This document shows positions 10,142 to 54,377 of a stretch of 64,000 bases of DNA, in pieces. Under the pieces are notes generated by a model. It made no database searches and was not told the origin of the DNA. It saw only the letters and a list, made by a program, of their open reading frames with translations. The position numbers and the translations under genes are program-made. The number at the start of each line of letters is the position of its first letter. The first letter of the stretch is position 1. The DNA lies in contig CAZRTL010000005.1 of the NCBI GenBank assembly GCA_964603065.1, positions 4,700-68,699 of the forward strand, given 5' to 3'. This DNA is from Candidatus Woesearchaeota archaeon (lineage in GTDB: Archaea > Nanobdellota > Nanobdellia > SCGC-AAA011-G17 > PNOQ01).

Positions 10142-10198
10142 CGTCAAATTCTTAAAAAACAAAATATTTATATACTATAGTTCAACTATAGTTATTCT

Positions 10199-10666: not shown

Positions 10667-10704
10667 TAATATAAATTGATAAAATGACTAATATAAAAGA
10701 AATA

Positions 10705-13592: not shown

Positions 13593-14801
13593 TTACTCCT
13601 TTCTCAATGCATCCACAGGATTTATTCTTGCGGCCCTCAAAGCAGGTAAAGTCCCCGAAATAGCTCCAGTAACAACCGCAAACAATATTAATCCAATAAA
13701 TAAATAAACTGAAAAATAAGGTTGTAAAAAACTCCAACCAAGATTTTTCAAAATTGCTCCCCCAATACTTGATATGCCCCAACCTAAGGCACAACCAAGA
13801 ACTCCAGCAATAAAACCCAAAAATGAACTCTCAAATAAAAATATGTCAAATATTTCTCTATTCCTAGCTCCGACTGCTTTCAAAATACCTATTTCTTTAT
13901 ATCTTTCCAAAACTGAAGTTATCATAGTATTAGCAGTATTTATAGTAGAAACTAAAACAGAAATAAGTGCTATTAAAATAACAAAGCCTATAACAATGTT
14001 CAGGGCGCTAGAAAAGGATTCGATTAAATCATTAAACGATTGTACAGTAAAATCTTCCTTACCTTTTTCAACATCTCTAGATCTTCTCAAATTTTTTTCT
14101 ATATCTTCAACTACTCTATCAATATTTTCTATTTCAACTCTAGCAAATAATTGCATATAAGAATTTTCATCTGGATTCATTTCCAAAAATTGATCATTAG
14201 TTACATATATTTGGGAATCATCTTGGGGATTTCCTATTTCCTCCAGAAAACCAATAATCCTTAAATTTTCACCATTAACTTCTATATTATCATTTAATCT
14301 AAATGACTTACTAAATATTTTATCGGGAATAAGGTAATTATAACCTAAAAGAGCTTTACCTGTATCTCCAGATTTTAAAGTTCTGCCTTCTATGGCTTTA
14401 ACATTAAACGAGTCTAAAATCATATCTCTCTTGGGATCATATGAAATCATAAAAATATATTTCAATTCTTTATTCTGTTTAATCTCGACTGCATCATAAT
14501 ACAACCCCGTTACTTCGTATACTCCCGGGATTCTGTCTATCACATCTATGTCCAATTCATTTAAAACTATTGTATTGGCCAAATCAATTATTCCTCCTGC
14601 AGATTTAGGCATGATTAGAACTTTATCAGCAGATGAAGATGAAGATAAGTCATCAATATAATTATACAATCCAGATCCAAAACTTACAAAAATAAATATC
14701 GTCGCAATTCCAACTAAAATCGAAAAAATTGTTAAAAAACTTCGACCTTTATTTTTTTTCAAATTCTTCAAAGAATATTTTACGCCTTCTTTACTTATCA
14801 T
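13593..14801 (-). CDS. ABC transporter permease, FtsX/MacB-like
   Basis: N-terminal TM, large extracytoplasmic domain, C-terminal 3-TM FtsX-type block (ILKAVGARN). Confidence 0.75.
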   Translation of the reverse strand: MISKEGVKYSLKNLKKNKGRSFLTIFSILVGIATIFIFVSFGSGLYNYIDDLSSSSSADKVLIMPKSAGGIIDLANTIVLNELDIDVIDRIPGVYEVTGLYYDAVEIKQNKELKYIFMISYDPKRDMILDSFNVKAIEGRTLKSGDTGKALLGYNYLIPDKIFSKSFRLNDNIEVNGENLRIIGFLEEIGNPQDDSQIYVTNDQFLEMNPDENSYMQLFARVEIENIDRVVEDIEKNLRRSRDVEKGKEDFTVQSFNDLIESFSSALNIVIGFVILIALISVLVSTINTANTMITSVLERYKEIGILKAVGARNREIFDIFLFESSFLGFIAGVLGCALGWGISSIGGAILKNLGWSFLQPYFSVYLFIGLILFAVVTGAISGTLPALRAARINPVDALRKE

Positions 14802-16021
14802 CCTCTTAGGGCCTCCACTGGATTCTCTTTTGCAGCCTTCATAGCAGGGATTATTCCAGCTATTCCTCCTATCAAAAAACTACCAATTAAAGAAAATAAA
14901 ATTAAAAGAAAATCTATATTCAAAGATAAATCTGTTCCAATAAGATTGTTTATACTTATTATCCCAATTGCTCCAATAATTGTTCCAAACAGTGCTCCTA
15001 TAGCACCCCCTACTAGGCCAAGCAAACTTGATTCAATAAAAAATTGTACAAAAATATGTTTGTTTCTAGCTCCAACAGACTTTATAACCCCTATTTCTCT
15101 TCTTCTTTCGGTAACTGAAGTTATCATTGTATTTATTATTCCAATTCCTCCAATAAAAATAGAAATCGAGGCCACAATTACAATAAATATTCGAACTCCA
15201 TCAAGTACATCATTAACTGTAGACAATAGTGCTTCAGGAGTACTCACTTCAAAATTCTCTTCACCTTTATCAACATCTCTCCTTTGTCTCAAAAGATTTT
15301 CAATATCAAGTTTAGTCTCATCAATTTCCTCCTTATCCTTTGGCCTAACAATAATTACATCCGCGATTTGCCCAAAATTAAATATATCATCCATATCACT
15401 TTCTAACATGAGAACAACATTATCCATAATCAAGCTTCCTTTCTTTTCCATAATCCCCTTGACTTCAAATTTTTCACCTTCAATTAAAACTGACTTGCCA
15501 ACTGTTATTGATTTTCCTCCCCACTCCTCACTTTTAGCATAAAAATTATATCCCAAAACCACTTTTCCAGAATCAGATTCTTTTAGCATTTTTCCATACA
15601 ATGCTTTTTGATTTAATTGAGTATAAACTAAATCTAGATCTTCTTTATTCTGGGCCATACTTCCAACATATCTAAATTGAACATTATCATTAAATTCTAC
15701 TTGTCCCGATTTTATGTTTCTCACAACAGTATTCTCAACACTGCTTAGCTTTTCAATTGCATCCGCATCACTCCTAGTAACGGGGTCCACAACCGCACTC
15801 CCGGGAGGGCCAAATCCAGATATTCCTCCTGCCTGTACAGTTATCAACTCGTTAGCACTTACTCCAAACTGGTTAGCTACAGCCAATTGTAAACCATTAC
15901 CTAAAGAAATCAAAGAAACAACGGCAGTAACCCCTATAAATATTCCTAATAGAGTTAACCAAGATCTAATACCTCTTTTTTTTAGATTTTTAAAAGCTAA
16001 ATTAAAAAAATCTTTAATCAT
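14798..16021 (-). CDS. ABC transporter permease, FtsX/MacB-like (paralog)
   Basis: Same architecture (IKSVGARN); 4-nt overlap with the downstream permease. Confidence 0.75.
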   Translation of the reverse strand: MIKDFFNLAFKNLKKRGIRSWLTLLGIFIGVTAVVSLISLGNGLQLAVANQFGVSANELITVQAGGISGFGPPGSAVVDPVTRSDADAIEKLSSVENTVVRNIKSGQVEFNDNVQFRYVGSMAQNKEDLDLVYTQLNQKALYGKMLKESDSGKVVLGYNFYAKSEEWGGKSITVGKSVLIEGEKFEVKGIMEKKGSLIMDNVVLMLESDMDDIFNFGQIADVIIVRPKDKEEIDETKLDIENLLRQRRDVDKGEENFEVSTPEALLSTVNDVLDGVRIFIVIVASISIFIGGIGIINTMITSVTERRREIGVIKSVGARNKHIFVQFFIESSLLGLVGGAIGALFGTIIGAIGIISINNLIGTDLSLNIDFLLILFSLIGSFLIGGIAGIIPAMKAAKENPVEALRG

Positions 16022-16022
16022 C

Positions 16023-16739
16023 CTAACGTTTTCTCCGCTTCATCGCTTTTTTGGTTATTTTCTCAATCCTTCCATCTTTTAACCAATAAACAATATCTGC
16101 ATATCCTCTTGCTAAATCAGAATCATGTGTAACCATAACAATTGTCTTACCATTTTTATTTAATCTTTGTAAAAAATCCATAACCGTTTCTCCAGTTTTA
16201 GTATCTAAATTTCCAGTAGGTTCATCTGCCAAAACCACTTCTGGAGAATTCGCTAAGGATCTAGCAATTGCAACTCTCTGTTGTTGACCCCCTGATAACT
16301 CCCCTGGAGAATGATGCATTCTGTCTCTCAAATCAACTAATTGCATTAATTTATTCGCTCTAAAACTTCTCTCACCAGAATCATATCCTTGAAAAATCAT
16401 AGGGATCATAACATTTTCCTTGGCAGTCAGATTATTAACTAAATTAAAAGATTGAAAAATAAATCCTATTTTTTGCCCTCTAAGCTGAGCCAAATCAGAT
16501 TCACTAAAAGTAGATATATCCTCACCATCTAAAAATATTCTTCCCTTAGTAGGAACATCTAAACTACCTATCAAATTCATCATAGTACTTTTGCCAGAAC
16601 CTGAAGGGCCCATTATAGCAATAAATTCTCCTTCTCTAATTTTTAAAGAAACTCCATCCACTGCCCTAACAATACTATTCCCCATATGAAAATACTTATG
16701 GACATTGTGTAACTCAATAATCACCTTTTTTTCATCCAT
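16023..16739 (-). CDS. ABC transporter ATP-binding protein (MacB/LolD type)
   Basis: GPSGSGKST Walker A, LSGGQQQRVAIAR signature, ILLADEPT Walker B. Confidence 0.9.
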   Translation of the reverse strand: MDEKKVIIELHNVHKYFHMGNSIVRAVDGVSLKIREGEFIAIMGPSGSGKSTMMNLIGSLDVPTKGRIFLDGEDISTFSESDLAQLRGQKIGFIFQSFNLVNNLTAKENVMIPMIFQGYDSGERSFRANKLMQLVDLRDRMHHSPGELSGGQQQRVAIARSLANSPEVVLADEPTGNLDTKTGETVMDFLQRLNKNGKTIVMVTHDSDLARGYADIVYWLKDGRIEKITKKAMKRRKR

Positions 16740-17124: not shown

Positions 17125-18708
17125 ATGGAAACTCCATTTCTATCACCCGAACCAACAGTAAAATTACTCCATGCGCTTTCTTATAATCCCCAAAGTAATA
17201 CTCGTGCGGCTGCAAAAACTTGTTATTCACCCAAATTACTCACGGAAGAAGGATTTCAAAAAAGATTAGAAAATGCAAATGAGCAGGAAAGAATAATTCT
17301 ACTTGAAGATATGGACAGATTAATCAACGATTTATATGATTCTGGCCACCATACAACTCTCGAACATAATGTTTTCCAATTTGCATTAACTCAGACTTCA
17401 AGGGCAGCAATTCATTCATTTTTACATTCTCACCCATTTTACAACTCGGAACAACAAAGCCAAAGGTTTGCTCCAATAGACACAGAATCTTTTACAATCC
17501 CAAATATGTCTGAAAAAAACTTAGGAATATACCAAGGGACTTTAGATCTACAAATAGAAACATTTGAAAGATTACAAGATATTTTATTTTCTGGGGCAAA
17601 AGATGCATATCAAAAAATCTTCAAAAAGAGAGATCCAGAAAAACATAAAAAAGATATTGCAAAAAAGGCCCAAGAGATAGCAAGATATGTTCTTCCCATA
17701 GCAATGCATTCAAAATTGCATCACACAATAAACGAAATGACTCTCTTAAGAATGCATAGATTATCTCAACAACCAGATTTCCCACTAGAACAAAAACTAA
17801 TAGTCGAAGGAATGATGTCTGCATTAGAAGAAAACCAAATAGAACTAGGATCTATAGTGGAAGATTCGATAAATGAAACGGATATGCTAGAATATTCTCT
17901 AAGGGAATTACATAGGGGCCAAGTTTCAACAGAAGAATTTTTCAGAGAATTTGATAATTCCTTAAATGGAAGAAGATCTATTCTAGATGGCCATTATACA
18001 AATTCAGAATCCCTTTTAGCAAATACTGTAAGAGGAATAGTAGGAATTCCAACAAATGAACTGTCTGATGAAAAAGCAATAGCTTTGGTCTTAGATTCAA
18101 ATAATAATTCTTACCTATCAGAAAAAATGAATTTAAACTACCATTCTAAGATAATGAAAGCCTTACTCACAATTAATTATACTTTCAAAAAGAAATTAAG
18201 TCACACAGCAGACTCACAAAGCCAAAGACATAGAACGATGCCCGGAGCATACCCCATTTTAGGCCTAAACATAGGGGAAGAACCTGATGTAGTCATTCCT
18301 TCCCTAATAGAATCGAACCAAGAAGCTCTTGACTTATTTATGGAAACAAATCAAGAAACATGGAAAAATATTCAAAAACTAACAGAAAACGGAGTTCCAA
18401 CAGAACAAGTACTTTATTTATTACCAAATGCAAAAGCAATAAGAAAATGGGAATCTGGTTCATTAGTGGGGCTATTACATAAACAAAACAAAAGATTATG
18501 TTATAATTCACAAGAAGAAATTTGGAGAATCGCTCAAGATGAAGCCAACGCAATAAAAAAAGTACATCCAGAAATCGGAAAATATTTCGGAGCACCATGC
18601 GATTTAAGGTCTGTTGGAAATGTAAAACCTTATTGCTCAGAAGGACCAAGATTTTGTGGAGTACCGGTATGGAAAATACCTGAAGAAGAAAGAGAAAGAG
18701 TGATATAA
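17125..18708 (+). CDS. ThyX (Thy1)-homologous protein, 527 aa, divergent motifs
   Basis: GHHTTLEHNVFQF...SRAAIHSFLHSHPFYNSEQQSQRF aligns to the ThyX HETPFEH...RQWFRHRIASYNELSGRY region; a second SQSQRHR stretch follows later. Confidence 0.5.
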   Translation: METPFLSPEPTVKLLHALSYNPQSNTRAAAKTCYSPKLLTEEGFQKRLENANEQERIILLEDMDRLINDLYDSGHHTTLEHNVFQFALTQTSRAAIHSFLHSHPFYNSEQQSQRFAPIDTESFTIPNMSEKNLGIYQGTLDLQIETFERLQDILFSGAKDAYQKIFKKRDPEKHKKDIAKKAQEIARYVLPIAMHSKLHHTINEMTLLRMHRLSQQPDFPLEQKLIVEGMMSALEENQIELGSIVEDSINETDMLEYSLRELHRGQVSTEEFFREFDNSLNGRRSILDGHYTNSESLLANTVRGIVGIPTNELSDEKAIALVLDSNNNSYLSEKMNLNYHSKIMKALLTINYTFKKKLSHTADSQSQRHRTMPGAYPILGLNIGEEPDVVIPSLIESNQEALDLFMETNQETWKNIQKLTENGVPTEQVLYLLPNAKAIRKWESGSLVGLLHKQNKRLCYNSQEEIWRIAQDEANAIKKVHPEIGKYFGAPCDLRSVGNVKPYCSEGPRFCGVPVWKIPEEERERVI

Positions 18709-19361: not shown

Positions 19362-20048
19362 ATGTTTATAGGTATCTACTTAGCCCTAATTTTAAGTATA
19401 TTTCACTTCGTTAGTGAAATCTTTGTCAAGTTTACAAGAAAACATATCTCAAAACTAATGAGCCTAGCAGCAGGAATTTTATTATCAATCATTTTCATAA
19501 AAATGCTTCCCGATTTTGCAAAACAAACTTTAGAAATAAATTATTTGCTCTTCATACTTCCTCTAATGGGTTTCGTGGCTTTCCATGCAATAAGAGCATA
19601 TAATTTCAAACATATCCAAACAAAAAAAGAATTAAAAGCAAGGTTCAGAAAAAATCATATTCTAGCTTTCTTTATGGAACACTTCATCATAGGTTTTACT
19701 TTAACTTTAACTTTTAAAGATCCAGTAGTTTCAGTGTTACTATTTCTCCCATTTATCTTATTAACTATATCATCATCTATTTTACTAAAAATTATAGATA
19801 AAACCTCTAAATCTGGAATGATAAAATTAATTTTAGGTTCCTCTACATTACTCGGCGCAATTGTAGGAACATTATTTTCATTTAGTCATATACTTTACAT
19901 AGGAGCATTTGGATATGTTTTAGGGTCTTTAATCTATATAGTATCTAGAGATATAATACCCATGGAAGAGAAAAAAGAAAATTTAACATTTTTTACTATA
20001 GGTTTAGTATTAACTTCAGCAGTACTTTTAATTAATGGGATAGTATAA
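19362..20048 (+). CDS. polytopic membrane protein (possibly a ZIP-like metal permease)
   Basis: About 7 predicted TM segments; weak HxxxE/G-type TM motifs. Confidence 0.35.
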   Translation: MFIGIYLALILSIFHFVSEIFVKFTRKHISKLMSLAAGILLSIIFIKMLPDFAKQTLEINYLLFILPLMGFVAFHAIRAYNFKHIQTKKELKARFRKNHILAFFMEHFIIGFTLTLTFKDPVVSVLLFLPFILLTISSSILLKIIDKTSKSGMIKLILGSSTLLGAIVGTLFSFSHILYIGAFGYVLGSLIYIVSRDIIPMEEKKENLTFFTIGLVLTSAVLLINGIV

Positions 20049-20572
20049 TGAAAAAAGTTTTAGCCTCAATATTTTTAATAATTTTTGTTATTTTAACGGC
20101 CTTAAATTTAATATTTTTTATTGAAATATATCAAAATAAAGATTTAAAAGAATTTTACCTCGGAGCGGAACTTCCAAGCGATTATTCAGAAAAAGAAAAA
20201 ATCCACATGGAAGAAGTTAAAATATTGACAAATATCCCATTATTACTAAATTTAATATTCTTAGTTGCAATTTTATTATTTAGAAACCCAGACTTCAAAA
20301 AAACAGGTAAGTCTTTAATAATAATCTCAATTTTACTTTTTATTGGTGCACTATTTTTTCAGAGTTTCTTTAGACAATTTCATTTATTACTTTTCAATTC
20401 AGACAATTGGTTATTACCTAAAGATTCCATTTTAATTCAAACCTATCCACTAGAATTTTTTAGAAATAAATTTATTTTAATTAACACAATAATTCTACTT
20501 ACTGGTGTTTTTTTGAGAAGCTACGGATTGCCCTTTAAAAGATTTTTTCAAAAACCACAAAGAAAAAGCTAG
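20048..20572 (+). CDS. membrane protein, hypothetical
   Basis: TAATG overlap with the upstream gene; 4-5 TM segments. Confidence 0.4.
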   Translation: MKKVLASIFLIIFVILTALNLIFFIEIYQNKDLKEFYLGAELPSDYSEKEKIHMEEVKILTNIPLLLNLIFLVAILLFRNPDFKKTGKSLIIISILLFIGALFFQSFFRQFHLLLFNSDNWLLPKDSILIQTYPLEFFRNKFILINTIILLTGVFLRSYGLPFKRFFQKPQRKS

Positions 20573-21314: not shown

Positions 21315-22457
21315 CTATTTCAACTTCCTAATCTTCTCTAACTCTTCATTAAAAATCTTAACTTCTTCCAAAGTGTTATACAAATAAAAACTAGCCCGAG
21401 CACTACCCTTAATTTGCCTAGAATTATACCAAGAGTGAGCACAATGCATACCGCTCCTAATCATAATGTTCTTACTATGGTCTAATAAACCAGCAACCTC
21501 ATGAAAATCAATTTTAGGGATATTAAAATTAAATATTCCTCTCTCACCCTTAAAACCAATTTCCTTAATTTTATCTTTATCAACAGCTTTAACTAACTTT
21601 TTCTCATGATCTTCAATATTAGACATACCAACCTTACTCAAAAATTTAACCGCCTCTCCAAAGCCTAAAATCCCAGAATAATTCTGCAATCCTGCTTCAA
21701 ATCTATGAGGCAAACTCTCCAAAACATAACTATCATAACTACTATCCGAAACGGTTTCTCCACCAATCAAAAAAGGCTTCATATCATCCAAAATCTTTTC
21801 TTTAACATACATAGCCCCAGTTCCAGTAGGACCCAACATTTTATGTCCAGAGAAAGTTAAAAAGTCAACATCTAATTTTTTAACATTAATTTCTTTATGG
21901 GGAGCAGCTTGTGCAGCATCAAAATGAACTTTCGCTTTATTCTCATGCGCTATCTTAACTATTTCCCTAACTGGCAAAGTGTATCCATCAATATTACTTG
22001 TATAAACAAAACTAACCATATCATAATTTTTAATCGCCTCAGAAAATTTTTCTAAATCAAAAGTATAATCTTCTTTACTCCTCAAAACTCCATATTTGAA
22101 TTTTTGCCAAGGTAGTAAGTTAGAATTATGTTCTCTGTCTGTAAGTAAAACTTTATCAAACTTAAATGAATTAGACAATAAATTTATACTTTCACTAGTG
22201 TTTTTTGAAAAAACAATTTCACTTGATTTCTTTGCTCCAATAAATTTCTGAATTAATTTTCTAGCGTTATCCATCTCGCCATCTAATTTCAAACCAAACT
22301 TATGAACACTTCTACCTGAACAAACAGGATACTCACTGTAATATTCATTGATCTTATCTATAACTTGTTTAGGCCTCAAAGACATACATGCACTATCTAA
22401 ATATACTATATTCTTTTTCAAAATTGGAAAGTTCTCTCTTATTTTTTCAACATTCAT
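21315..22457 (-). CDS. cysteine desulfurase (class V aminotransferase, SufS/Csd type)
   Basis: FSGHKMLGPTGTGAMYV PLP-lysine region and IRSGMHCA catalytic Cys loop. Confidence 0.85.
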   Translation of the reverse strand: MNVEKIRENFPILKKNIVYLDSACMSLRPKQVIDKINEYYSEYPVCSGRSVHKFGLKLDGEMDNARKLIQKFIGAKKSSEIVFSKNTSESINLLSNSFKFDKVLLTDREHNSNLLPWQKFKYGVLRSKEDYTFDLEKFSEAIKNYDMVSFVYTSNIDGYTLPVREIVKIAHENKAKVHFDAAQAAPHKEINVKKLDVDFLTFSGHKMLGPTGTGAMYVKEKILDDMKPFLIGGETVSDSSYDSYVLESLPHRFEAGLQNYSGILGFGEAVKFLSKVGMSNIEDHEKKLVKAVDKDKIKEIGFKGERGIFNFNIPKIDFHEVAGLLDHSKNIMIRSGMHCAHSWYNSRQIKGSARASFYLYNTLEEVKIFNEELEKIRKLK

Positions 22458-22921
22458 TCTTTACACTCTCCACAACTACAGTCATCTCCACAAATTTCAC
22501 ACTGTCCAGAATCACATAAAGGATCCCCACAATCTACTGGCTCTGCATTAGGTGTAAATATACAAGTTTCAGGATCTGCATTTGGGCCATTACAATTGTC
22601 ATAAATAGCTAAATTATAAACTGCTTGAGCGGAAAAAAACAAACTCACAAAAAATAAAACAACAAACAGCCACGAAACAACCTCAAAATATTTATACACA
22701 GGCTTAGCTAAACCAGAATTTTTTCTCATCAAAGTTCCAACTAATTTAGATTTTAACTTCACATCTAAACCAGATTGGCATTTTCTAAGAGTAATCCTTC
22801 TAAAAACACAATCGAATGCCTCTTTTGCTATTGGCCTATGGCTAGCCGAAAAAATAGCCATAATTCCAAAAACAATCATTGCAATTAAACAAATCATGGA
22901 GTTTACAAAAATGATGGTCAT
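22454..22921 (-). CDS. membrane protein with a Cys-rich C-terminal tail
   Basis: Two to three TM segments plus CGDPLCDSGQCEICGDDCSCGECKE; ATGA overlap with the desulfurase start. Confidence 0.45.
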   Translation of the reverse strand: MTIIFVNSMICLIAMIVFGIMAIFSASHRPIAKEAFDCVFRRITLRKCQSGLDVKLKSKLVGTLMRKNSGLAKPVYKYFEVVSWLFVVLFFVSLFFSAQAVYNLAIYDNCNGPNADPETCIFTPNAEPVDCGDPLCDSGQCEICGDDCSCGECKE

Positions 22922-22970
22922 ATAAAAACATTTCTATAGTTTTAAAAATACTTGACAACCTCAAAAAATC

Positions 22971-23705
22971 ATGATAAACCCAATAGCGTTTTCAATAGGA
23001 AACATAAATATCAATTGGTATGGTATAATCTTCGCACTAGGTTTCATAATCGCAATCCCTATAATGATCAAACTAGGAAAGCAAAAAAATATCACAAAAC
23101 AACAAATATATGATTATTTTATCTACCTAATTCCTCCTAGTATAATAGGAGCTAGATTATTAGCAGTTATCTTAAATTTCAATTTATATCAAGATAATTT
23201 ACTAAAAATATTTTATATCTGGCAAGGGGGAATGGCATTTCATGGAGGTTTAATAGGAGCAATAATAGGAACTTATTTTTTCTGTAAAAAACACAAAGTG
23301 CACTTTTATGACATAGCTGATATTATCTCAATTCCACTAGCTTTAGGACTATCTTTAGGAAGACTTGGAAATTTCATAAACCAGGAATTCTACGGAAGAT
23401 TAACAAATCTGCCATGGGGAATTCATTACGATGTTGTTGAAGGAAAAAGGCATCCCTCTCAAATTTATGAATCAATAAAAAACTTCATAATTTTCATATT
23501 CTTATTAAATTTTTATAAGTTAAAGAAACTAAAAAAAGGAGTAATATTTTGGCTTTTCATATTTCTCTACTCTTTATTCAGATTTCTTGTAGAATTCTAC
23601 AAAGATCAACCATTACTCTACCTAAACTTAACATACGGACAAATAATCAGCATTCCTCTCTTCATACTATCGATAATAATACTAAGGAAAATAGGTAAAA
23701 AATGA
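22971..23705 (+). CDS. lgt: prolipoprotein diacylglyceryl transferase
   Basis: PIAFSIGNININWYGIIFALGF (compare E. coli [22 protein letters not shown]), MAFHGGLIGA, GRLGNFINQEFYGR (Lgt signature). Confidence 0.8.
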   Translation: MINPIAFSIGNININWYGIIFALGFIIAIPIMIKLGKQKNITKQQIYDYFIYLIPPSIIGARLLAVILNFNLYQDNLLKIFYIWQGGMAFHGGLIGAIIGTYFFCKKHKVHFYDIADIISIPLALGLSLGRLGNFINQEFYGRLTNLPWGIHYDVVEGKRHPSQIYESIKNFIIFIFLLNFYKLKKLKKGVIFWLFIFLYSLFRFLVEFYKDQPLLYLNLTYGQIISIPLFILSIIILRKIGKK

Positions 23706-24139
23706 ACTTAATAGAAAGACTAGAATTATTAGCAATAAACCCACTTGAACCAGTAGAAGAAACAATTCAAAGTTCATGGAACATAGTAAAAACTCCCCAT
23801 AAAGTAGTAGAACATTATGTTTGGGGATTATTGCCTTCAGAACAACAAGAGAATTATACCACACACAATGGATTACCTTATGATTATCCAACAAAAGTAT
23901 CATGTGGGGGAAATTTAACAGCATCATTAATAAAATTCAGTGGGGCAATGCTACTTCCAGCAGGTTTTTTATTCAATGCTCCTTCCTTATTATTAAAATT
24001 ATCAGCTCTAGGAGTAGCCGGGGAATCATTTTACAGATTATATAGAATTAAAAGAACAAAGAAGCCTTTTGGCAATTTTCCTTTCGAATTTGGAAATTCA
24101 ATATATCAAAATCTAAAGGAAAGATTTAAAAGAAACTAA
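23702..24139 (+). CDS. hypothetical protein, translationally coupled to lgt
   Basis: ATGA overlap with the lgt stop. Confidence 0.35.
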   Translation: MNLIERLELLAINPLEPVEETIQSSWNIVKTPHKVVEHYVWGLLPSEQQENYTTHNGLPYDYPTKVSCGGNLTASLIKFSGAMLLPAGFLFNAPSLLLKLSALGVAGESFYRLYRIKRTKKPFGNFPFEFGNSIYQNLKERFKRN

Positions 24140-24178: not shown

Positions 24179-25111
24179 TTGACTAAAAAATTAAACAAGT
24201 GGAAAATTAGTACATTCGTACTTATTCTTATATTAATCATTGTAATTGTCTTTTCTGGTTTCAATCCTTTAAGCTTAACAACTGGAAATGCAGTTGCACA
24301 AAATGCTGTTAGTTTTATTAACACAAATATGTTACAAGGTCAAACAGCAACAGTTGAAGATGTAAGTTCTATAAGTGGAGTTTACAAGGCATCTATTAAT
24401 ATACAGGGACAACCTGCAGAAGTCTATGTAACAAAAGATGGAAAATTAATGTTTTTACAGGCAGTACCATTAGTTCCAGTAGATACTCCTACTGGCACAA
24501 ATACAGATACTAACACAAATACAAATATAGATGTACCAAAATCAGATAAACCCTCAGTAGAATTATTCGTGATGAGTCTTTGTCCATTCGGAAATAAAGC
24601 GGAGGACACGATGTTGTCAGTATACAATCTACTAAAAGACAAAGTAGAGTGGAAGATAAATTACATAGTTTCTACAGAAGGCGACACAATCAGATCATTA
24701 CATGGTCAACCAGAAACAGATCAAAACATACAAGAAGTATGTGTAAAAAAGGAATATGGTCTAAATTCATTCTGGGATTTTATTACTTACATAAACAAAA
24801 ACTGTGGAAGCAACGGAAATTGTTGGGAAGATGGAGCGATAGAATTAGGATTGGATGTAACAACAATACAAGAATGCTTTGATAATGAAGGAATAAGCTT
24901 GATGCAAGTGGAAGCACAAATATCCGGAGAAGCTGGAGCAACAGGATCACCAACATTATTGATAAATGGTGTAAAATCCAGTGAAGTCTATAAGTATAGT
25001 AACTCTGAAGCATACAAACAAGCAATTTGTTCTGCATTCAACGAAGCTCCTGAAGAATGTTCAGAAACCTTAGAAAGTTCAACTACAACATCCAACGGGG
25101 GAAGTTGCTAA
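24179..25111 (+). CDS. membrane-anchored secreted protein with a Thr/Asn-rich linker
   Basis: N-terminal TM, TPTGTNTDTNTNTNID low-complexity linker, C-terminal Cys-containing globular domain. Confidence 0.45.
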   Translation: MTKKLNKWKISTFVLILILIIVIVFSGFNPLSLTTGNAVAQNAVSFINTNMLQGQTATVEDVSSISGVYKASINIQGQPAEVYVTKDGKLMFLQAVPLVPVDTPTGTNTDTNTNTNIDVPKSDKPSVELFVMSLCPFGNKAEDTMLSVYNLLKDKVEWKINYIVSTEGDTIRSLHGQPETDQNIQEVCVKKEYGLNSFWDFITYINKNCGSNGNCWEDGAIELGLDVTTIQECFDNEGISLMQVEAQISGEAGATGSPTLLINGVKSSEVYKYSNSEAYKQAICSAFNEAPEECSETLESSTTTSNGGSC

Positions 25112-25175: not shown

Positions 25176-26201
25176 TTGATTTATATGAAAATTAAATACT
25201 CTGACTTTGTTAAAACTTACTCTAAAATACATAGGAATTCCATCTATTACCCAAAAGTTATGAAATTTCATGATAAAGGCCTTAAAGTTAAAAATATTTC
25301 CAAAAAACTAAATTTACCATATCTTCTTGTCTGGAGATGGGTAAATAACAAAACCATTCCTCATTCATATTTAGAATATTCAAAAATTAAGAAAAAATTT
25401 AATTCTAAAGAGATAAAAAATCTCGCTAAAGTAATGGGATATATTTATGGAGATGGAGGAATATTAAAAAATGGAAGGATTCATTACTGTAATACTGAGA
25501 AATTCTTAATAAGTGACTTCATAAAATCAGTAAACAAAGTATTTGCACAAAATCCACATATTAAAAAAGAGTCAAAAATATTCCGTGTTAAGTTCTCTGC
25601 GATAATGGGTAAAACCTTGTGGTGACTATTTGGAAAATTTAGTTATGGCAAAGACACTAAAAAAGTTACTGAACAAATAAAGAAGATGCCTTTAGAGTGG
25701 AAAGCAAATATGTTACAAACCTGGTTCAATGACGATGGTAGCGTACCAAATTATGGTGTGATCGCAATTAAACAAAAACCCAAACACTTGATTGAATTCA
25801 TACAAACTACATTAATGGAATTTAATATAAAATCAATAGTATCCAGAGATGGAGATACGTGGCTTCTAAGAATATGTAGCTACTTGGATTTAAAAAAATT
25901 TCAAGAAAAAATTAATTTTACAAAGGGATACAGAAAAAGAGAATTATTAGAAAAAACCATCTCAGAAAAGAAAAATCCTACAAATGTTACAAAAAATAAA
26001 ATATTGGAATTATTGCAAAACTCTCCAAGAACTCTAAAAGAGCTACAATACAATTTAAGTATAAACAGAAATGTCATATATGGGCACCTTCATGGATGGA
26101 AAAGAAAAAGCAAAAACAAGAAAAGTACACTAGGATTAGTCGATTTAAACTTAATAGGGGTCAAAGGAAAGGGTAAAGATAAAATTTTTTACATAAAATA
26201 A
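25176..26201 (+). pseudogene. LAGLIDADG homing-endonuclease-like gene interrupted by an in-frame TGA (25626-25628)
   Basis: Two LAGLIDADG-type motifs (MGYIYGDGGI; LQTWFNDDGSV) in the same frame, separated by a single TGA; C-terminal HTH-like tail. Confidence 0.55.
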
Positions 26202-26236: not shown

Positions 26237-26749
26237 TTAATCTACCTTAACAGTAGATTGTCTTTCTCGTATATCTATCCGTTCAAACTCTCCACCATAA
26301 AAAAATACCTCAGCATCAAAATCCCCAGTCAGCTTCTCATCAAGATTATCGTTAAATTCCGGTAAATAATCCACATTTAGAAACAAAGAAACAGAACCCT
26401 CCGTAATCTCATCACCTTCCATAAAATCAGCATTTACAGTAGCTTTATCCTCTAACCTAACATCTCTTTGTCTGAAAGCAAAAACTTCTCCTTCATAATC
26501 ACATAAACTCCCTAAACTCTTACTCTCCAAAAGATATTCTCTAGCATTTTCAACTAAATCTATTAAATAATCATCTGGAAGCTCCATTAATCTAGCATCT
26601 AAAGAATCGATATGACTATACGTATGTATAAACCCAGTTTTTTCAGAATAAGGAAGATCTACATTAGGTGAATAATTCACTCTTGAAGCTCCACATCCAA
26701 CAACAAGCGACACCAATAAAGTCAGTAAACTTTTCCTAAAATTAATCAT
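26237..26749 (-). CDS. putative lipoprotein (lipobox LVVGC)
   Basis: Signal peptide MINFRKSLLTLLVSLVVGCGAS with a Cys at the lipobox position. Confidence 0.5.
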   Translation of the reverse strand: MINFRKSLLTLLVSLVVGCGASRVNYSPNVDLPYSEKTGFIHTYSHIDSLDARLMELPDDYLIDLVENAREYLLESKSLGSLCDYEGEVFAFRQRDVRLEDKATVNADFMEGDEITEGSVSLFLNVDYLPEFNDNLDEKLTGDFDAEVFFYGGEFERIDIRERQSTVKVD

Positions 26750-27050
26750 TTTTGTAAAAAACCCTCATCAAAATCTTAAAATCACCCATAGACATATCAT
26801 CAGGAGAAATAGTTTTTGTTTCAGTTCTATCATAACCATCTTTTGTAAAAGACATTCTTAAAATAAACATTCCACCTTTTACTCCTAAAATTTCATAATG
26901 AGCATCTGCTATCAATCTAGTTTCTTGAGAAGGAAAATAATCAGGTTGAAATTCTGTACTTACTCCTCCAGAAGGCCCACAGCCAAACAAAAAGGGGGTT
27001 AATAAAGCGGTAATTCCTAATCCTTTTCTAAACTTACTTGAAATATCCAT
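26742..27050 (-). CDS. putative lipoprotein (lipobox LFGC)
   Basis: ITALLTPFLFGCGPS lipobox-like; overlaps the downstream lipoprotein gene by 8 nt. Confidence 0.5.
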   Translation of the reverse strand: MDISSKFRKGLGITALLTPFLFGCGPSGGVSTEFQPDYFPSQETRLIADAHYEILGVKGGMFILRMSFTKDGYDRTETKTISPDDMSMGDFKILMRVFYKND

Positions 27051-32461: not shown

Positions 32462-33124
32462 ATGGTATCATTGGGATTCGCACCAGTTTGGTTTTCTTAT
32501 CAAAGTATAATCTTCGAATTAGTTTTTGCTATAATAACTTTGCTAGTGGCGTTTGCATCATTCAGAATATACCACCTATCAAAAGAAAAATCTGCGGCGT
32601 GGTTTGGATCAGGATTCTTATTATTCTCAATTTCATATTTTATACAATTAATGTTAAACATTGGAATTAAGTACAGGTTAAGTGAAAATATACAAATAAT
32701 AAGCGAAGCAAGAGAAATTATAAATCTTGGTTTAACAGCATTAAATCTTCATATGATTTTAATGATTACTGGATTAGTTATACTAACTCACATCAATTTA
32801 AAAGAAAAAAGTTTTAGAAACTTCCTATTATTATTAGCAGTTACGCTAACCCCGATCTATTTTAGTCATCACCCAATATTTCTATTTTTCACAATATCTT
32901 CAATATTATTAGGATTCATAACGTTAAGCTACTTATTTAATTATTTAGAAAAAAAGAGATTTAATACATATTTAGTATTTTCAGCATTTTTACTTTTATT
33001 CTTAAGTAATATCCATTTTATATTTTCAATACAAAACACTATATTTTATGTAATCGCTCATTTCTTTGAGTTATTTTCATACTTACTAATATTAATAAAT
33101 TTAACGATGTGTTTAAAAAGATGA
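32462..33124 (+). CDS. polytopic membrane protein, hypothetical
   Basis: 6-7 TM segments. Confidence 0.4.
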   Translation: MVSLGFAPVWFSYQSIIFELVFAIITLLVAFASFRIYHLSKEKSAAWFGSGFLLFSISYFIQLMLNIGIKYRLSENIQIISEAREIINLGLTALNLHMILMITGLVILTHINLKEKSFRNFLLLLAVTLTPIYFSHHPIFLFFTISSILLGFITLSYLFNYLEKKRFNTYLVFSAFLLLFLSNIHFIFSIQNTIFYVIAHFFELFSYLLILINLTMCLKR

Positions 33125-34432: not shown

Positions 34433-35086
34433 ATGAATATGAAAAACAAAGGTTTAAAGATTACAATTGGAGTTTTAGCAGTAGTACTAGTCATTAGCAT
34501 TTTCGCTAATTTTGGAAACACTAGCAATGGGACAGCAAATGCAGTAAAACCGACAGGAACATCTAGAGTAGAGGTGTCAGTAGATGATGATACAATAAAA
34601 GGAAATCCAAATGCACCTGTTACAATAGTAGAATTTTCTGACTTCCAATGTTCATTCTGTGCTAGATTTTACGAGCAAACTCTACTACAATTACGACAAC
34701 AATACATTGATACTGGAAAAGTAAAATTCGTATACAGAGATTTCCCATTAGGTAATCATGAATATGCACAAAAAGCAGCAGAAGCAACAGAGTGTGCAGA
34801 TGATCAAGGAAAATTCTGGGAAATGCATGACTTGTTATTCGAAACAGGTTTATTAGCACCAAGTGACTTAAAACAACATGCAGTTACTTTAGGACTAGAT
34901 ACAACAGAGTTTAACGAATGTTTAGATTCTGGAAAATATACTGGTGAAGTGCAAAAAGATCTAAAAGATGGACAAGCTGCTGGAGTACAAGGAACACCGA
35001 GTTTCTTCATTAATGGAGTATTATTAAGAGGAGCACAACCGTTCAGCGCATTTCAACAAGTAATAGAAGCAGAATTAGCTTCTTAA
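34433..35086 (+). CDS. DsbA-like thiol:disulfide oxidoreductase, membrane-anchored
   Basis: EFSDFQCSFCARF thioredoxin-fold CxxC; N-terminal TM. Confidence 0.75.
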   Translation: MNMKNKGLKITIGVLAVVLVISIFANFGNTSNGTANAVKPTGTSRVEVSVDDDTIKGNPNAPVTIVEFSDFQCSFCARFYEQTLLQLRQQYIDTGKVKFVYRDFPLGNHEYAQKAAEATECADDQGKFWEMHDLLFETGLLAPSDLKQHAVTLGLDTTEFNECLDSGKYTGEVQKDLKDGQAAGVQGTPSFFINGVLLRGAQPFSAFQQVIEAELAS

Positions 35087-38084: not shown

Positions 38085-38155
38085 GCCTGGCCGGATTCGA
38101 ACCGGCGACCTCTGCCTTGTAAGGGCAACGCTCCACCAGGCTAAGCTACAGGCTC
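38082..38155 (-). tRNA. tRNA-Val (anticodon TAC)
   Basis: Cloverleaf folded by hand: acceptor GAGCCUG/CAGGCUC; D arm GCUU/GAGC; anticodon stem UUGCC/GGCAG with loop CUUACAA; T arm GCCGG-UUCGAAU-CCGGC; discriminator A; no encoded CCA. Confidence 0.85.
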
Positions 38156-42104: not shown

Positions 42105-42299
42105 ATGAAGAGGATATTAATTATACTGACACTAGTAGTTTTGTTAGTCTCTAGTTGTACTCAAATACAAACCGAAGACACAGAAAAAACTGGAGATGAA
42201 TCCACGGATAATTTAGAAGATTATATCTCCAATTTTGATAACTTAGATTCTGATCTAAATGAACTAGATGATTTTAACCTAAATGATTTAGATTTTTAA
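42105..42299 (+). CDS. small acidic lipoprotein-like protein (LVSSC lipobox)
   Basis: MKRILIILTLVVLLVSSCTQ followed by a D/E/N-rich tail. Confidence 0.4.
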   Translation: MKRILIILTLVVLLVSSCTQIQTEDTEKTGDESTDNLEDYISNFDNLDSDLNELDDFNLNDLDF

Positions 42300-44233: not shown

Positions 44234-44644
44234 ATGAATAGATCATTAATCGCTGCAACAACAACTCTACTACTATCTTTAGGTATAGCTGGAAGTTGCG
44301 TAGCATACAAACAAAATAGATGGATTTCAAGAGATAATAGCATAACTATTGAGGGAAGAGTAATTGATGAAAATATGTATTGGAATGACGGAGAAAATTT
44401 GCATAACCCCTCATTACTCAATTTGAATGTTCAAAGAAGGGGATACACAATAAAAAGTGATTCTGGAGAGTTTTATTTAGCACTTACACCTTCCCCAAAA
44501 GCTGACCCATTGAACGTAGGATATAAAGGACAATTTAGTCTAGGAACTCATCTAAGAAATAAGGTAGAAGAAGTATATCATAATGGTAAATTAACTCCTA
44601 CAAAAATATCTGTAAGACCTCTCTTTGAATATGATTTAGAATAA
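44234..44644 (+). CDS. secreted hypothetical protein
   Basis: Signal peptide. Confidence 0.4.
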   Translation: MNRSLIAATTTLLLSLGIAGSCVAYKQNRWISRDNSITIEGRVIDENMYWNDGENLHNPSLLNLNVQRRGYTIKSDSGEFYLALTPSPKADPLNVGYKGQFSLGTHLRNKVEEVYHNGKLTPTKISVRPLFEYDLE

Positions 44645-53984: not shown

Positions 53985-54377
53985 ATGAAAAAATTCTTCA
54001 TTATAGCGGCCATAATAGTAGTTTTAGACCAAATTACAAAAATTCTATTTACTAACAAACATTTTGGTATCATAAATTACACCACAAACACTGGAGCAGC
54101 TTTCTCTTTATTTCAAGGATATACCTTTTTTCTGGCAATAATTTCAATTTTAATAGCAATTTTTATATATTTTCTAGCTAAAAAAAATAAAAATTTGCAA
54201 ATCCCCCTTGCTTTCATATTTGGAGGGGCAGTAGGAAATTTAATAGACAGGTTATTTCTAGGTCATGTAAGAGACTTTATTGATTTGCAAGTTTGGCCAA
54301 TATTTAACATAGCAGATTCTTTCAATGTAATTGGAGTTGTAATAATAGCATATTTAATTTTAAAAGGAAAAACTTAA
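53985..54377 (+). CDS. lspA: lipoprotein signal peptidase (signal peptidase II)
   Basis: Four TM segments, NTGAAFSLF and FNIADSF signature blocks; 130 aa. Confidence 0.8.
   Translation: MKKFFIIAAIIVVLDQITKILFTNKHFGIINYTTNTGAAFSLFQGYTFFLAIISILIAIFIYFLAKKNKNLQIPLAFIFGGAVGNLIDRLFLGHVRDFIDLQVWPIFNIADSFNVIGVVIIAYLILKGKT

What the first reader, a model, noticed from the sequence alone, without database searches (positions are those of the whole stretch)
22971..23705. Bacterial-type Lgt in an archaeal housekeeping context
The 244-aa ORF carries the N-terminal block (PIAFSIGNININWYGIIFALGF) and the GRLGNFINQEFYGR signature of prolipoprotein diacylglyceryl transferase. It sits within a few kb of archaeal exosome, proteasome and r-protein genes, so it is unlikely to be bacterial contamination. 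A downstream ORF (23702-24139) is translationally coupled to it through ATGA. Archaea are generally thought to lack the Lgt/Lsp pathway.
Basis: partly seen in the sequence, partly recalled or inferred. Interest (0 to 1): 0.7.

Follow-up and report, generated by a model that had tools for sequence, protein, structure and literature searches.

The report
Bacterial lipoprotein pathway in an archaeon
A tiny uncultured archaeon (Woesearchaeota-type DPANN) carries an intact, long-inherited copy of the bacterial enzyme Lgt that fixes proteins to the membrane by a lipid, plus its partner Lsp and a Lit-like protein, although papers up to 2026 state that archaea lack these enzymes.

Summary
ORF 22971-23705 is a full-length Lgt. 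It scores 249.6 bits on PF01790 and passes the TIGR00544 equivalog cut-off. All known functional residues are kept, and the AlphaFold model matches E. coli Lgt at TM 0.89. The contig is archaeal throughout: exosome, proteasome and RNase P genes, S2 and L10e, and further markers just beyond both window ends. Four independent assemblies are identical across the gene, so chimerism is excluded.

ORF 53985-54377 is Lsp (signal peptidase II) with an intact Asp dyad. ORF 20048-20572 is a Lit-like PF07314 protein with an intact His dyad. The window also holds four lipobox-type signal peptides.

Lgt and Lsp each belong to large clades whose named members are all Woesearchaeota, Nanoarchaeota or "archaeon". 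Synteny with archaeal core genes holds down to 58-64% Lgt identity, which indicates old, vertical inheritance. The overlapping downstream ORF145 is a lineage-specific orphan, not a conserved partner.

Databases already auto-annotate such genes. However, papers from 2025-2026 explicitly state that Lgt and Lsp are absent from archaea, and I found no paper reporting them in DPANN. The lipid donor (ester-linked or ether-linked) remains open.

The parts
22971..23705 (+). lgt: prolipoprotein diacylglyceryl transferase homolog, 244 aa
   Evidence: PF01790 249.6 bits. TIGR00544 201.2 bits against cut-off 118.9. E. coli Lgt 5AZB E=5e-36. Y17/H91/R131/N134/E139/G142/Y200/R204/E208 correspond to E. coli Y26/H103/R143/N146/E151/G154/Y235/R239/E243. 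Seven of these are invariant and E208 is >=90% conserved across 23 clade members; H91 varies. AF2 pLDDT 87.7, Foldseek TM 0.89 to 5AZB.
53985..54377 (+). lsp: lipoprotein signal peptidase (SPase II) homolog, 130 aa
   Evidence: PF01252 103.8 bits. TIGR00077 lspA 77.4 bits against cut-off 73.95. S. aureus LspA 6RYO E=9e-16, with the GNxxDR and FNxAD catalytic Asp motifs and NTGAAF conserved. The 120 closest homologs are all about 130 aa, and every named one is Woesearchaeota, Nanoarchaeota or 'archaeon'.
20048..20572 (+). Lit-like membrane protein (PF07314 family), 174 aa
   Evidence: PF07314 52.6 bits against cut-off 24. B. cereus Lit 7B0O E=1.4e-5. Counterparts of the catalytic His85/His153 and of V89, K90, F149 and F157 are invariant in 7 archaeal homologs. 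The window protein also keeps the W162 counterpart; in the alignment it is W in 6 of 7 and Y in one. AF2 pLDDT 73.8; the top 5 PDB hits are all Lit, TM up to 0.67. It fails the NCBIfam cut-offs: TIGR01906 52 bits against 74.8, and Lit equivalog NF051877 18.9 against 400.
19362..20048 (+). 8-TM membrane protein (weak ZIP-like hit) whose stop overlaps the Lit-like start by 1 nt (TAATG)
   Evidence: The overlap is seen in the sequence. A 228-aa ORF with the same 1-nt overlap precedes the Lit gene in the contigs of P0004 and P0011. The Zip hit is below cut-off. Function unknown.
23702..24139 (+). ORF145, overlapping the lgt stop (ATGA); lineage-specific orphan, not a conserved part of the system
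   Evidence: No Pfam or NCBIfam hit. It is absent downstream of lgt in L005/L006 and in the P0004, P0011 and P0026 contigs. Only 4 homolog representatives in 1.84e9 proteins.
22940..22949 (+). TATA-box-like TTTTAAAAAT about 30 nt upstream of the lgt ATG (possible archaeal promoter; low weight)
   Evidence: Seen in the sequence. In a 30% GC genome such matches are frequent by chance. This is inference only.
26237..26749 (-). candidate lipoprotein substrate: MINFRKSLLTLLVSLVVG|C
   Evidence: Matches the strict lipobox pattern with Cys19 after the hydrophobic region.
26742..27050 (-). candidate lipoprotein substrate: ...LLTPFLFG|C
   Evidence: N-terminal signal with [GAS]C at Cys24. Phe at -2 is non-canonical.
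42105..42299 (+). candidate lipoprotein substrate: MKRILIILTLVVLLVSS|C
   Evidence: Matches the strict lipobox pattern.
44234..44644 (+). candidate lipoprotein substrate: ...LLLSLGIAGS|C
   Evidence: Matches the lipobox pattern. Weaker -3/-2 positions.

Best explanation
The window comes from a Woesearchaeota-type DPANN archaeon. Its lineage acquired the bacterial lipoprotein-maturation genes long ago and has inherited them vertically.

Proposed mechanism:
1. Sec exports pre-proteins whose signal peptide ends in a lipobox Cys.
2. Lgt (22971-23705) transfers the glyceryl-lipid moiety of a phosphatidylglycerol-type lipid onto the Cys thiol.
3. Lsp (53985-54377) then cuts off the signal peptide just before the lipidated Cys.
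4. The Lit-like protein (20048-20572) may then move the sn-2 acyl chain to the new alpha-amino group, giving a lyso-form anchor.

Shown here: family membership, intact catalytic residues and fold for Lgt; family membership and intact catalytic residues for Lsp; an intact His dyad and a Lit-like fold for the third protein; lipobox-type signal peptides; native archaeal context; conservation across a large clade.

Inferred: enzymatic activity and the order of steps, taken from the bacterial pathway.

Open: the lipid donor. I favour ester-linked diacyl-PG, at roughly even odds, for two reasons. A Lit-type transacylation is chemically impossible on ether-linked isoprenoid chains. And bacterial fatty-acid and G3P genes have been reported in Woesearchaeota.

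The confidence given here is for a native, functional Lgt/Lsp lipoprotein pathway, not for the donor sub-claim.
For: - Lgt membership: PF01790 and TIGR00544 above cut-offs. Functional residues kept in the window protein. Seven of them are invariant and E208 is >=90% conserved across 23 clade members at 47-82% identity. Model TM 0.89 to 5AZB.
- Lsp: PF01252 and TIGR00077 above cut-offs, with both catalytic Asp motifs.
- Lit-like: PF07314 above cut-off. His85/His153, V89, K90, F149 and F157 counterparts invariant in 7 homologs; W162 counterpart kept in the window protein and in 6 of 7. Best fold matches are all Lit.
- Substrates: 4 of 14 signal-peptide-like proteins carry [GAS]C after the hydrophobic region, against 3 of 57 other genes; binomial P=3.5e-3.
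- Native archaeal context: archaeal markers across the window and beyond both ends. Uniform GC. Gene GC and GC3 within 1-2 SD of the genome. Four independent assemblies are identical apart from one SNP outside lgt.
- Vertical inheritance: shared synteny (Rpp30, AA kinase, DUF357, ThyX, Lit, Aminotran_5, lgt) in genomes whose Lgt is 58-82% identical. One of them has the archaeal RNAP operon immediately downstream.
- Large clades: the named members of the Lgt and Lsp clades are all archaeal, and Lgt and Lsp hits share longest-contig lengths. The best bacterial Lgt is 43% identical or less.
- Lipid context: bacterial FA-synthesis, G3PDH and CFA-synthase genes reported in Woesearchaeota.
Against: - No biochemical evidence exists. 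Nothing here shows expression or activity.
- The Lit-like protein fails both NCBIfam cut-offs and lacks a match to the first ~70 positions of the Pfam profile, so its Lit function is uncertain. The ester-lipid argument rests on it.
- The lipobox census is small (14 proteins).
- No lipid-synthesis gene of either type was seen in about 84 kb of this contig.
- A single origin for the archaeal clade is only weakly supported. NJ bootstrap is 65% for the 21-member core and 44% or less deeper.
- Coleman et al. considered it unlikely that archaeal PlsC/PlsY homologs function in membrane synthesis.
Confidence: 0.8

Rival explanations
1. Same Lgt/Lsp pathway, but adapted to archaeal lipids. Lgt would take the diphytanylglyceryl (archaeol) moiety from archaetidylglycerol and form the thioether-linked archaeol-Cys already known from haloarchaeal lipoproteins. 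The PF07314 protein would then have a different, non-transacylase role. This rival concerns only the lipid-donor sub-claim of the best explanation.
For: Archaeal lipoproteins studied so far carry thioether-linked archaeol. The Lgt residues that bind the phosphoglycerol head group (R143/R239 equivalents) are the conserved ones, and that head group is shared by both lipid types. The Lit-like protein fails the curated Lit equivalog model. UbiA prenyltransferases and isoprenoid pathways are reported in Woesearchaeota.
Against: The backbone stereochemistry is opposite (G1P against G3P) and the chains are ether-linked isoprenoids, and no Lgt has been shown to accept such a lipid. The Lit-like protein keeps the full catalytic dyad and aromatic cage of an enzyme whose only known chemistry needs an ester-linked acyl chain. 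It is also syntenic with lgt across species.
Confidence: 0.3
2. An Lgt-fold enzyme repurposed for an acceptor other than lipobox proteins, for example another membrane or cell-surface molecule. The homology would then not predict lipoprotein formation.
For: No direct evidence for activity. The E. coli head-domain segment (residues 157-178) is missing. DPANN genomes often retain divergent bacterial genes.
Against: Co-inheritance with Lsp, whose only known substrate is the Lgt product. Lipobox-type signal peptides are enriched. All substrate-facing essential residues are conserved. Shortening of the head and arm regions is described as the normal variable part of bacterial Lgts.
Confidence: 0.07
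3. A recently transferred, decaying or non-functional passenger gene.
For: Its ultimate origin is bacterial. The downstream ORF145 is a young orphan.
Against: Intact ORF. Catalytic residues are invariant or nearly so over a clade spanning 47-100% identity. Conserved synteny in several species. Composition matches the genome. The closest bacterial homologs are only 43% identical or less.
Confidence: 0.04
4. An assembly chimera or bacterial contamination joined to archaeal sequence.
For: None beyond the prior expectation that Lgt is bacterial.
Against: Four assemblies from different samples are collinear and 99.99-100% identical through lgt with up to 10 kb of flank on each side. One of them is a 262-kb contig. 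No GC break. The same gene order occurs in other species.
Confidence: 0.01

Closest known systems
Bacterial Lgt (E. coli Lgt, PDB 5AZB/5AZC; PF01790, TIGR00544)
   Same: Full-length HMM match. 38% identity to E. coli over 236 aligned residues. All nine functional residues are kept. Same helical transmembrane fold, TM 0.89 and rmsd 2.4 A.
   Different: Encoded in an archaeal genome. It is shorter (244 against 291 aa) and lacks E. coli residues 157-178 (head region) and the N-terminal 9 residues. It belongs to a clade with no sampled bacterial member. The lipid donor is unknown.
Bacterial LspA (S. aureus 6RYO, P. aeruginosa 5DIR; PF01252, TIGR00077)
   Same: Catalytic Asp dyad motifs and the NxGAAF motif. 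Passes both curated cut-offs.
   Different: Unusually short (130 aa against about 160-170), with deletions in the extracytoplasmic loops relative to S. aureus LspA. It passes TIGR00077 only narrowly (77.4 against 73.95). The clade's named members are archaeal.
Firmicute Lit, lipoprotein intramolecular transacylase (B. cereus, PDB 7B0O; PF07314)
   Same: Pfam family member. The His85/His153 dyad and V89, K90, F149, F157 and W162 counterparts are conserved in the window protein. Best structural matches are all Lit.
   Different: 174 aa against the 237-residue 7B0O chain, and the N-terminal third does not match the profile. It fails the TIGR01906 and NF051877 (Lit equivalog) cut-offs. The model has only moderate confidence. 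It should be called Lit-like, not Lit.
Archaeal AliA/AliB (arCOG02177) of Haloferax volcanii, the only experimentally supported archaeal lipoprotein lipidation factors (PMC12462473, PMC13631571)
   Same: Same predicted biological outcome: lipidation of a lipobox Cys in an archaeon. AliA is reported to occur in DPANN 'with some gaps'.
   Different: AliA/AliB are not detectable homologs of Lgt; HHpred probability is 29% according to the paper. The protein here is an unambiguous Lgt. Whether this genome also has AliA could not be tested, because no AliA sequence was available. The one unannotated 6-TM protein tested shows no similarity to the Lgt profile.

Membership tests
Lgt (PF01790 / TIGR00544) | Profile-HMM score above curated cut-offs, over the full length | tested here: met
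   PF01790 249.6 bits against 24.9, profile positions 1-238 of 240. TIGR00544 201.2 bits against 118.9.
Lgt (PF01790 / TIGR00544) | Essential and important residues: E. coli Y26, R143, N146, E151, G154, R239, E243, plus H103 and Y235. The list is from my knowledge of Pailler 2012 and Mao 2016; R143 and R239 are confirmed in PMC12462473. | tested here: met
   All nine are conserved in the window protein. Seven are invariant across 23 clade members, E208 (=E243) is >=90% conserved, and H91 (=H103) varies.
Lgt (PF01790 / TIGR00544) | Lgt transmembrane fold | tested here: met
   AF2 pLDDT 87.7, pTM 0.84. Foldseek gives 5AZB as the only significant PDB hit: E=3e-13, TM 0.89, rmsd 2.4 A.
Lgt (PF01790 / TIGR00544) | Transfers diacylglyceryl from phosphatidylglycerol to the lipobox Cys | not testable with these tools
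   Needs a biochemical assay or complementation. The donor lipid in an archaeal membrane is unknown.
Lgt (PF01790 / TIGR00544) | Lipobox-bearing substrates encoded in the same genome | tested here: met
   Four candidates in 64 kb. 4 of 14 signal-peptide-like proteins against 3 of 57 controls, P=3.5e-3. The sample is small.
Lsp / signal peptidase II (PF01252 / TIGR00077) | HMM above curated cut-offs | tested here: met
   PF01252 103.8 bits against 25. TIGR00077 77.4 bits against 73.95, a narrow pass.
Lsp / signal peptidase II (PF01252 / TIGR00077) | Catalytic aspartate dyad (GNxxDR and FNxAD motifs) | tested here: met
   Alignment with S. aureus LspA 6RYO and with 9EMZ shows both motifs conserved.
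Lsp / signal peptidase II (PF01252 / TIGR00077) | Four transmembrane helices | tested here: inconclusive
   A crude hydropathy count gives about 3 segments. No structure was predicted for it.
Lit (PF07314; NCBIfam NF051877 / TIGR01906) | Pfam family membership | tested here: met
   PF07314 52.6 bits against 24, but only profile positions 72-176 of 176 are matched.
Lit (PF07314; NCBIfam NF051877 / TIGR01906) | NCBIfam equivalog-level score | tested here: not met
   NF051877 18.9 bits against 400. TIGR01906 52 bits against 74.8. It is therefore filed as Lit-like only.
Lit (PF07314; NCBIfam NF051877 / TIGR01906) | Catalytic His85/His153 dyad and the conserved V89, F149, F157 and W162 (PMC8275575) | tested here: met
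   alignment together. H53, V57, K58, F107, H112 and F116 are invariant in 7 archaeal homologs, and the W162 counterpart is W in 6 of 7.
Lit (PF07314; NCBIfam NF051877 / TIGR01906) | Lit fold (4 TM helices plus an extracellular cap) | tested here: inconclusive
   The model has pLDDT 73.8 and the cap region is of low confidence. The top 5 PDB hits are all Lit, but E=0.016-0.27 and TM 0.46-0.67.
LolCDE lipoprotein-release ABC transporter | NCBIfam LolC/LolD/LolE equivalog scores | tested here: not met
   LolD 232.7 bits against 307.75. lolCE 65.8 and 51.5 bits against 362. It is a generic MacB-type ABC transporter.
Archaeal genome (host of the gene) | Archaea-specific informational genes on the same contig, with continuity verified | tested here: met
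   Rrp41/Rrp42/Rrp4, SBDS, proteasome alpha, Pop5, Rpp30, S2, L10e. Rpb6, S28e, L24e, S6e, aIF2 gamma and aIF5B in the flanks. Four identical assemblies.
AliA/AliB (arCOG02177) | Sequence homology to H. volcanii HVO_2859 | not tested
   No AliA sequence was obtainable and no supplement text is held. Only 64 kb of the genome was available anyway.

The most novel reading that the evidence does not exclude
These Woesearchaeota-type archaea hold ester-linked, bacterial-type phosphatidylglycerol in their membranes, either self-made or taken from a bacterial partner. They would use it to build Firmicute-style lyso-form lipoproteins (N-acyl-S-monoacylglyceryl-Cys) through Lgt, then Lsp, then the Lit-like protein. 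That would be a breach of the archaeal/bacterial 'lipid divide', visible in protein lipidation and readable from three conserved genes. A corollary is that Lgt has displaced the native AliA system in this lineage.
Probability: 0.3. Interest if true: 0.85.

Novelty: new member of a known kind. Interest (0 to 1): 0.66.

Why it matters
Three recent primary papers state that archaea have no Lgt or Lsp homologs: Nat Commun 2025 (PMC12462473), mBio 2026 (PMC13251419) and JBC 2026 (PMC13631571). They build the case for a separate archaeal machinery (AliA/AliB) partly on that absence. The mBio survey used RefSeq genomes, which largely exclude DPANN MAGs.

This locus, with more than 100 related Lgt and more than 100 related Lsp clusters, shows that the statement is wrong for a major uncultured archaeal lineage. 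It also turns an open question into experiments that can be run:
- Can an Lgt work in or on an archaeal membrane?
- Which lipid does it use?
- Do these archaea actually carry bacterial-type ester lipids, as hinted by the fatty-acid genes reported in Woesearchaeota?

It further provides a compact 244-aa Lgt, a 130-aa Lsp and a 174-aa Lit-like protein for structure-function work.

The finding is tempered by two facts. The genes are ordinary members of known families, and automated pipelines (NCBI, IMG) already label them as such.

Tried and rejected
- ORF145 as a functional partner of Lgt: rejected. It has no family hit, is absent from relatives' loci, and has 4 homolog clusters in 1.84e9 proteins.
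- The MacB-type ABC trio (13593-16739) as LolCDE: rejected. All scores are far below the Lol cut-offs.
- The unannotated 6-TM protein 32462-33124 as a distant Lgt- or AliA-like enzyme: no similarity, hhalign probability 0.1%.
- Methyltransferase 56971-57576 as a cyclopropane-fatty-acid synthase: only a sub-threshold CMAS hit among many generic methyltransferase hits. Not pursued.
- Single origin of archaeal Lgt: the NJ point tree is monophyletic, but bootstrap for the full clade is 10-19%. Left unresolved.
- Independent verification that L007, L008, L012 and L014 are archaeal: the flanking Pfam domains were not domain-diagnostic.
- Supplementary tables of the AliA paper, for DPANN phyletic patterns: not held.
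- Void calls: and the fifth item, were void because I trimmed the wrong end of minus-strand ORFs. repeat the two contig look-ups correctly.
- Codon-usage cosine: Lgt and Lsp rank as atypical, but so do other small polytopic membrane proteins, so this is uninformative.
- Lipid-synthesis genes: none found in about 84 kb.
Full report
**Observation.** ORF 22971-23705 (+, 244 aa) is present exactly as described, with both quoted motifs. Its TGA stop overlaps the ATG of ORF 23702-24139, forming ATGA. It matches PF01790 (LGT) at 249.6 bits, E=3.4e-74, over profile positions 1-238 of 240. It also passes the NCBIfam equivalog model TIGR00544 at 201.2 bits against a cut-off of 118.9.

**Is it a functional-looking Lgt?**
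- Against E. coli Lgt (PDB 5AZB) the match is E=5e-36.
- A global alignment maps E. coli Y26, H103, R143, N146, E151, G154, Y235, R239 and E243 onto identical residues: Y17, H91, R131, N134, E139, G142, Y200, R204 and E208. The residue list comes from my knowledge of the mutagenesis and structure papers. R143 and R239 are confirmed as essential in PMC12462473.
- In an alignment of 23 clade members (47-82% identical to the query), seven of these positions are invariant, E208 is at least 90% conserved, and H91 varies.
- An AlphaFold2 model built on that alignment has pLDDT 87.7. Its only significant PDB match is 5AZB, with E=3e-13, TM-score 0.89 and rmsd 2.4 A.
- The protein is shorter than E. 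coli Lgt, mainly because residues 157-178 (head region) have no counterpart. The mBio 2026 paper describes the arm and head as the variable parts of bacterial Lgts.

**Is the context archaeal and real?**
- The window carries the archaeal 'exosome superoperon': Rrp42-like 3594-4364, Rrp41 4361-5065, Rrp4 5067-5756, SBDS 5767-6468, proteasome alpha 6456-7175, Pop5 7181-7519 and Rpp30 8192-8623. It also has S2, L10e and DUF357.
- Ten kb beyond each window end on the same 262-kb contig lie Rpb6, RNase J and Mre11/Rad50 on one side, and L7Ae, S28e, L24e, S6e, aIF2-gamma and aIF5B on the other.
- GC is a uniform ~0.30. GC and GC3 of lgt, lsp and the Lit-like gene lie within about 1-2 SD of the gene mean.
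- The identical Lgt protein is encoded on contigs assembled independently from at least four samples. These are collinear with the window and 99.99-100% identical through lgt with up to 10 kb of flank on each side. The only difference is one SNP at 25625.
- Chimerism and contamination are excluded.

- ORF 53985-54377 (130 aa) is a lipoprotein signal peptidase. It scores 103.8 bits on PF01252 and 77.4 on TIGR00077 against a cut-off of 73.95. It matches S. aureus LspA 6RYO at E=9e-16, and both catalytic-Asp motifs (GNxxDR, FNxAD) are conserved.
- ORF 20048-20572 (174 aa) belongs to PF07314 (Lit, lipoprotein intramolecular transacylase) at 52.6 bits against a cut-off of 24. It matches the B. cereus Lit structure 7B0O at E=1.4e-5.
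- The Lit structure paper names His85/His153 as the catalytic dyad. V89, F149, F157 and W162 are highly conserved, and K90 is also required for activity.
- In the alignment all of these have identical counterparts. H53, V57, K58, F107, H112 and F116 are invariant among seven archaeal homologs, and the W162 counterpart is W in six of the seven.
- A moderate-confidence model (pLDDT 73.8) has B. cereus Lit as its five best PDB matches, TM up to 0.67.
- However, the protein fails both NCBIfam models: TIGR01906 at 52 bits against 74.8, and the Lit equivalog NF051877 at 18.9 against 400. Its N-terminal third also does not match the Pfam profile. I therefore call it Lit-like, not Lit.
- No Lnt was found.

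**Substrates.** Among 14 proteins in the window with a single N-terminal signal-like hydrophobic segment, four have [GAS]-Cys directly after it:
- 26237-26749: VVGC
- 26742-27050: LFGC
- 42105-42299: VSSC
- 44234-44644: AGSC

Among the other 57 genes, 3 have the same dipeptide in the same position range. With a Cys frequency of 1.3% the binomial P is 3.5e-3. This supports the pathway, but the sample is small. It agrees with the report that predicted lipoproteins are prevalent in DPANN.

**Distribution and history.**
- The Lgt query finds 2890 homologs at E<1e-10. All of the best 120 are 46-100% identical, and every one that carries a name is 'Woesearchaeota', 'Nanoarchaeota', 'Nanoarchaeia' or 'archaeon'.
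- Lsp behaves the same way: the 120 best are all about 130 aa, with the same names. Several Lgt and Lsp hits share the same longest-contig length (80,626; 172,035; 346,477; 178,900; 90,457; 34,500), which suggests that they lie on the same contigs.
- In GTDB species genomes the top hits are Woesearchaeota or Nanoarchaeota MAGs at 41-59% identity. The best bacterial hits (Geobacteraceae, Pelagibacter) reach 43% or less.
- Synteny is conserved in other species. L005 and L006 (Lgt 58-59% identical) share DUF357, the class-V aminotransferase and the ORF155 homolog immediately upstream of lgt, and L005 also has Rpp30 and the AA kinase.
- The contigs of P0004 (82%), P0011 (77%) and P0026 (64%) show Rpp30 ... 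AA kinase ... DUF357 ... ThyX ... Lit ... Aminotran_5 ... lgt. In P0026 the archaeal RNA polymerase operon follows directly downstream.
- A neighbour-joining tree puts all archaeal-labelled and clade sequences together with no bacterium inside. Bootstrap support is 96-98% for the window's nearest relatives, 77% for 10 taxa, 65% for a 21-member core that includes the named Woesearchaeota and Nanoarchaeota proteins, and 44% or less for deeper nodes.

So an old acquisition with vertical descent is well supported for the core clade. A single origin for all archaeal Lgts is not shown. The archaeal identity of L007, L008, L012 ('Methanosarcinales') and L014 rests only on the depositors' labels.

**The downstream ORF.** ORF145 (23702-24139) has no family hit. 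It is not found downstream of lgt in any relative examined; the next genes there are 104, 343 and 355 aa, start 36-78 nt after the lgt stop, and do not overlap it. It is a singleton at 90% identity, and it has only four homolog representatives among 1.84 billion proteins. The ATGA overlap is real but is a strain- or species-level feature, not part of a conserved system.

By contrast, the Lit-like gene is overlapped by 1 nt (TAATG) with an upstream 228-aa 8-TM protein. That arrangement recurs in two relatives.

**Mechanism.** The best-supported reading is the bacterial pathway operating in an archaeon. Sec exports lipobox pre-proteins. Lgt attaches a glyceryl-lipid from a PG-type donor to the Cys thiol. 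Lsp cleaves the signal peptide. The Lit-like protein may then shift the sn-2 acyl chain to the alpha-amino group. Family membership, catalytic residues, fold (for Lgt and, more weakly, the Lit-like protein), context and conservation are shown here. Activity and the order of steps are inferred from the bacterial enzymes.

The open step is the donor lipid. Two observations favour ester-linked diacyl-PG:
- A Lit-type intramolecular transacylation needs an ester-bonded acyl chain and cannot occur on ether-linked isoprenoids (chemistry described in PMC8275575).
- Bacterial fatty-acid-synthesis genes, a bacterial G3P dehydrogenase, ACP-pathway genes and cyclopropane-fatty-acid phospholipid synthase have been reported in Woesearchaeota. 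Some authors suggest that these archaea hold or modify bacterial-type lipids, or are episymbionts of bacteria.

Against this, the Lit assignment is only family-level. No lipid genes lie in the ~84 kb examined. Coleman et al. doubted that archaeal PlsC/PlsY act in membrane synthesis. The main rival reading is Lgt using archaetidylglycerol to make the archaeol-Cys thioether known from haloarchaea.

**Comparison with the literature.**
[quoted passage not shown] - Full-text searches combining Woesearchaeota or DPANN with Lgt, prolipoprotein or lipoprotein signal peptidase returned only the AliA papers.
- The DPANN 'bacterial pathways' paper never mentions lipoproteins, Lgt or signal peptidase.
- On the other hand, NCBI and IMG pipelines already name these proteins correctly.

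**Verdict.** This is a genuine, ordinary-looking member of the Lgt family in an unexpected domain of life, together with Lsp and a Lit-like protein. It is known to databases but, as far as I could find, not to the literature. Novelty: new member of a known kind. Interest is moderately high because it contradicts explicit recent statements and makes the lipid-donor question directly testable.

Noticed in passing
window 13593-16739 (-): A MacB-type ABC transporter: ATPase 16023-16739 plus two FtsX/MacB_PCD permeases at 14798-16021 and 13593-14801. It has the same three-gene architecture as LolCDE, but all scores are well below the Lol cut-offs (LolD 232.7 against 307.75; lolCE 65.8 or less against 362). 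It is absent from this position in the P0004 contig.
   Followed up: partly
window 25176-26201 (+), SNP at 25625: A LAGLIDADG-domain gene is split by an in-frame TGA (25623-25625) in the window. Three independent assemblies (L001-L003) have TGC (Cys) there and an intact 338-aa gene. This is the only base difference between the window and those contigs.
   Followed up: partly
window 24179-25111 (+) and 34433-35086 (+): Two membrane-anchored or secreted thiol-oxidoreductase-like proteins (GILT-like, borderline; DsbA/Thioredoxin_4, strong). DsbA-like genes also lie near lgt in L006 and in the P0004 and P0011 contigs. This suggests extracytoplasmic disulfide chemistry in this lineage.
   Followed up: partly
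window 22454-22921 (-): ORF155 has two TM segments plus a Cys-rich C-terminal tail (...CGDPLCDSGQCEICGDDCSCGECKE) and no family hit. Its stop codon overlaps the start codon of the class-V aminotransferase gene (21315-22457) by 4 nt. It is conserved divergently upstream of lgt in L005, L006 and the P0004 and P0011 contigs.
   Followed up: partly
window 17125-18708 (+): ThyX is 527 aa with two Thy1 matches, so it looks duplicated or fused. The homolog is 526 aa in the P0011 contig but 280-315 aa in the P0004 and P0026 contigs.
   Followed up: no
window 38000-40300: A local GC rise to 0.40 against ~0.30 elsewhere. It coincides with a 666-aa secreted protein (38226-40226, -, weak DUF5667 hit) right next to the only tRNA (tRNA-Val, 38081-38156, -). 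Possibly an integrated or compositionally distinct gene.
   Followed up: no
L012 9986-10813 (GTDB genome labelled 'uncultured Methanosarcinales archaeon'): An Lgt homolog (35% identical, GC 0.46) in a MAG labelled Methanosarcinales. The flanking genes (Peptidase_M50, He_PIG) are not domain-diagnostic, so this could be mis-binning or a separate transfer.
   Followed up: partly
contig of P0026, locus coordinates 3930-4667: A lytic-transglycosylase (SLT) domain gene lies about 5 kb from lgt in a related Woesearchaeota-type contig. This fits the published suggestion that some of these archaea attack or attach to bacterial cell walls.
   Followed up: no
window ~10150-10700 and the flanks in L086 7441-7967: ParE-toxin and MazE-antitoxin-like small genes are scattered between housekeeping genes on this contig and in the relatives' syntenic regions.
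   Followed up: no
L086 1-2608 (just beyond the window's 3' end): Bacterial-type DNA gyrase (GyrB/GyrA) lies next to archaeal translation-factor and r-protein genes. It is another bacterial-origin system on the same archaeal contig.
   Followed up: no
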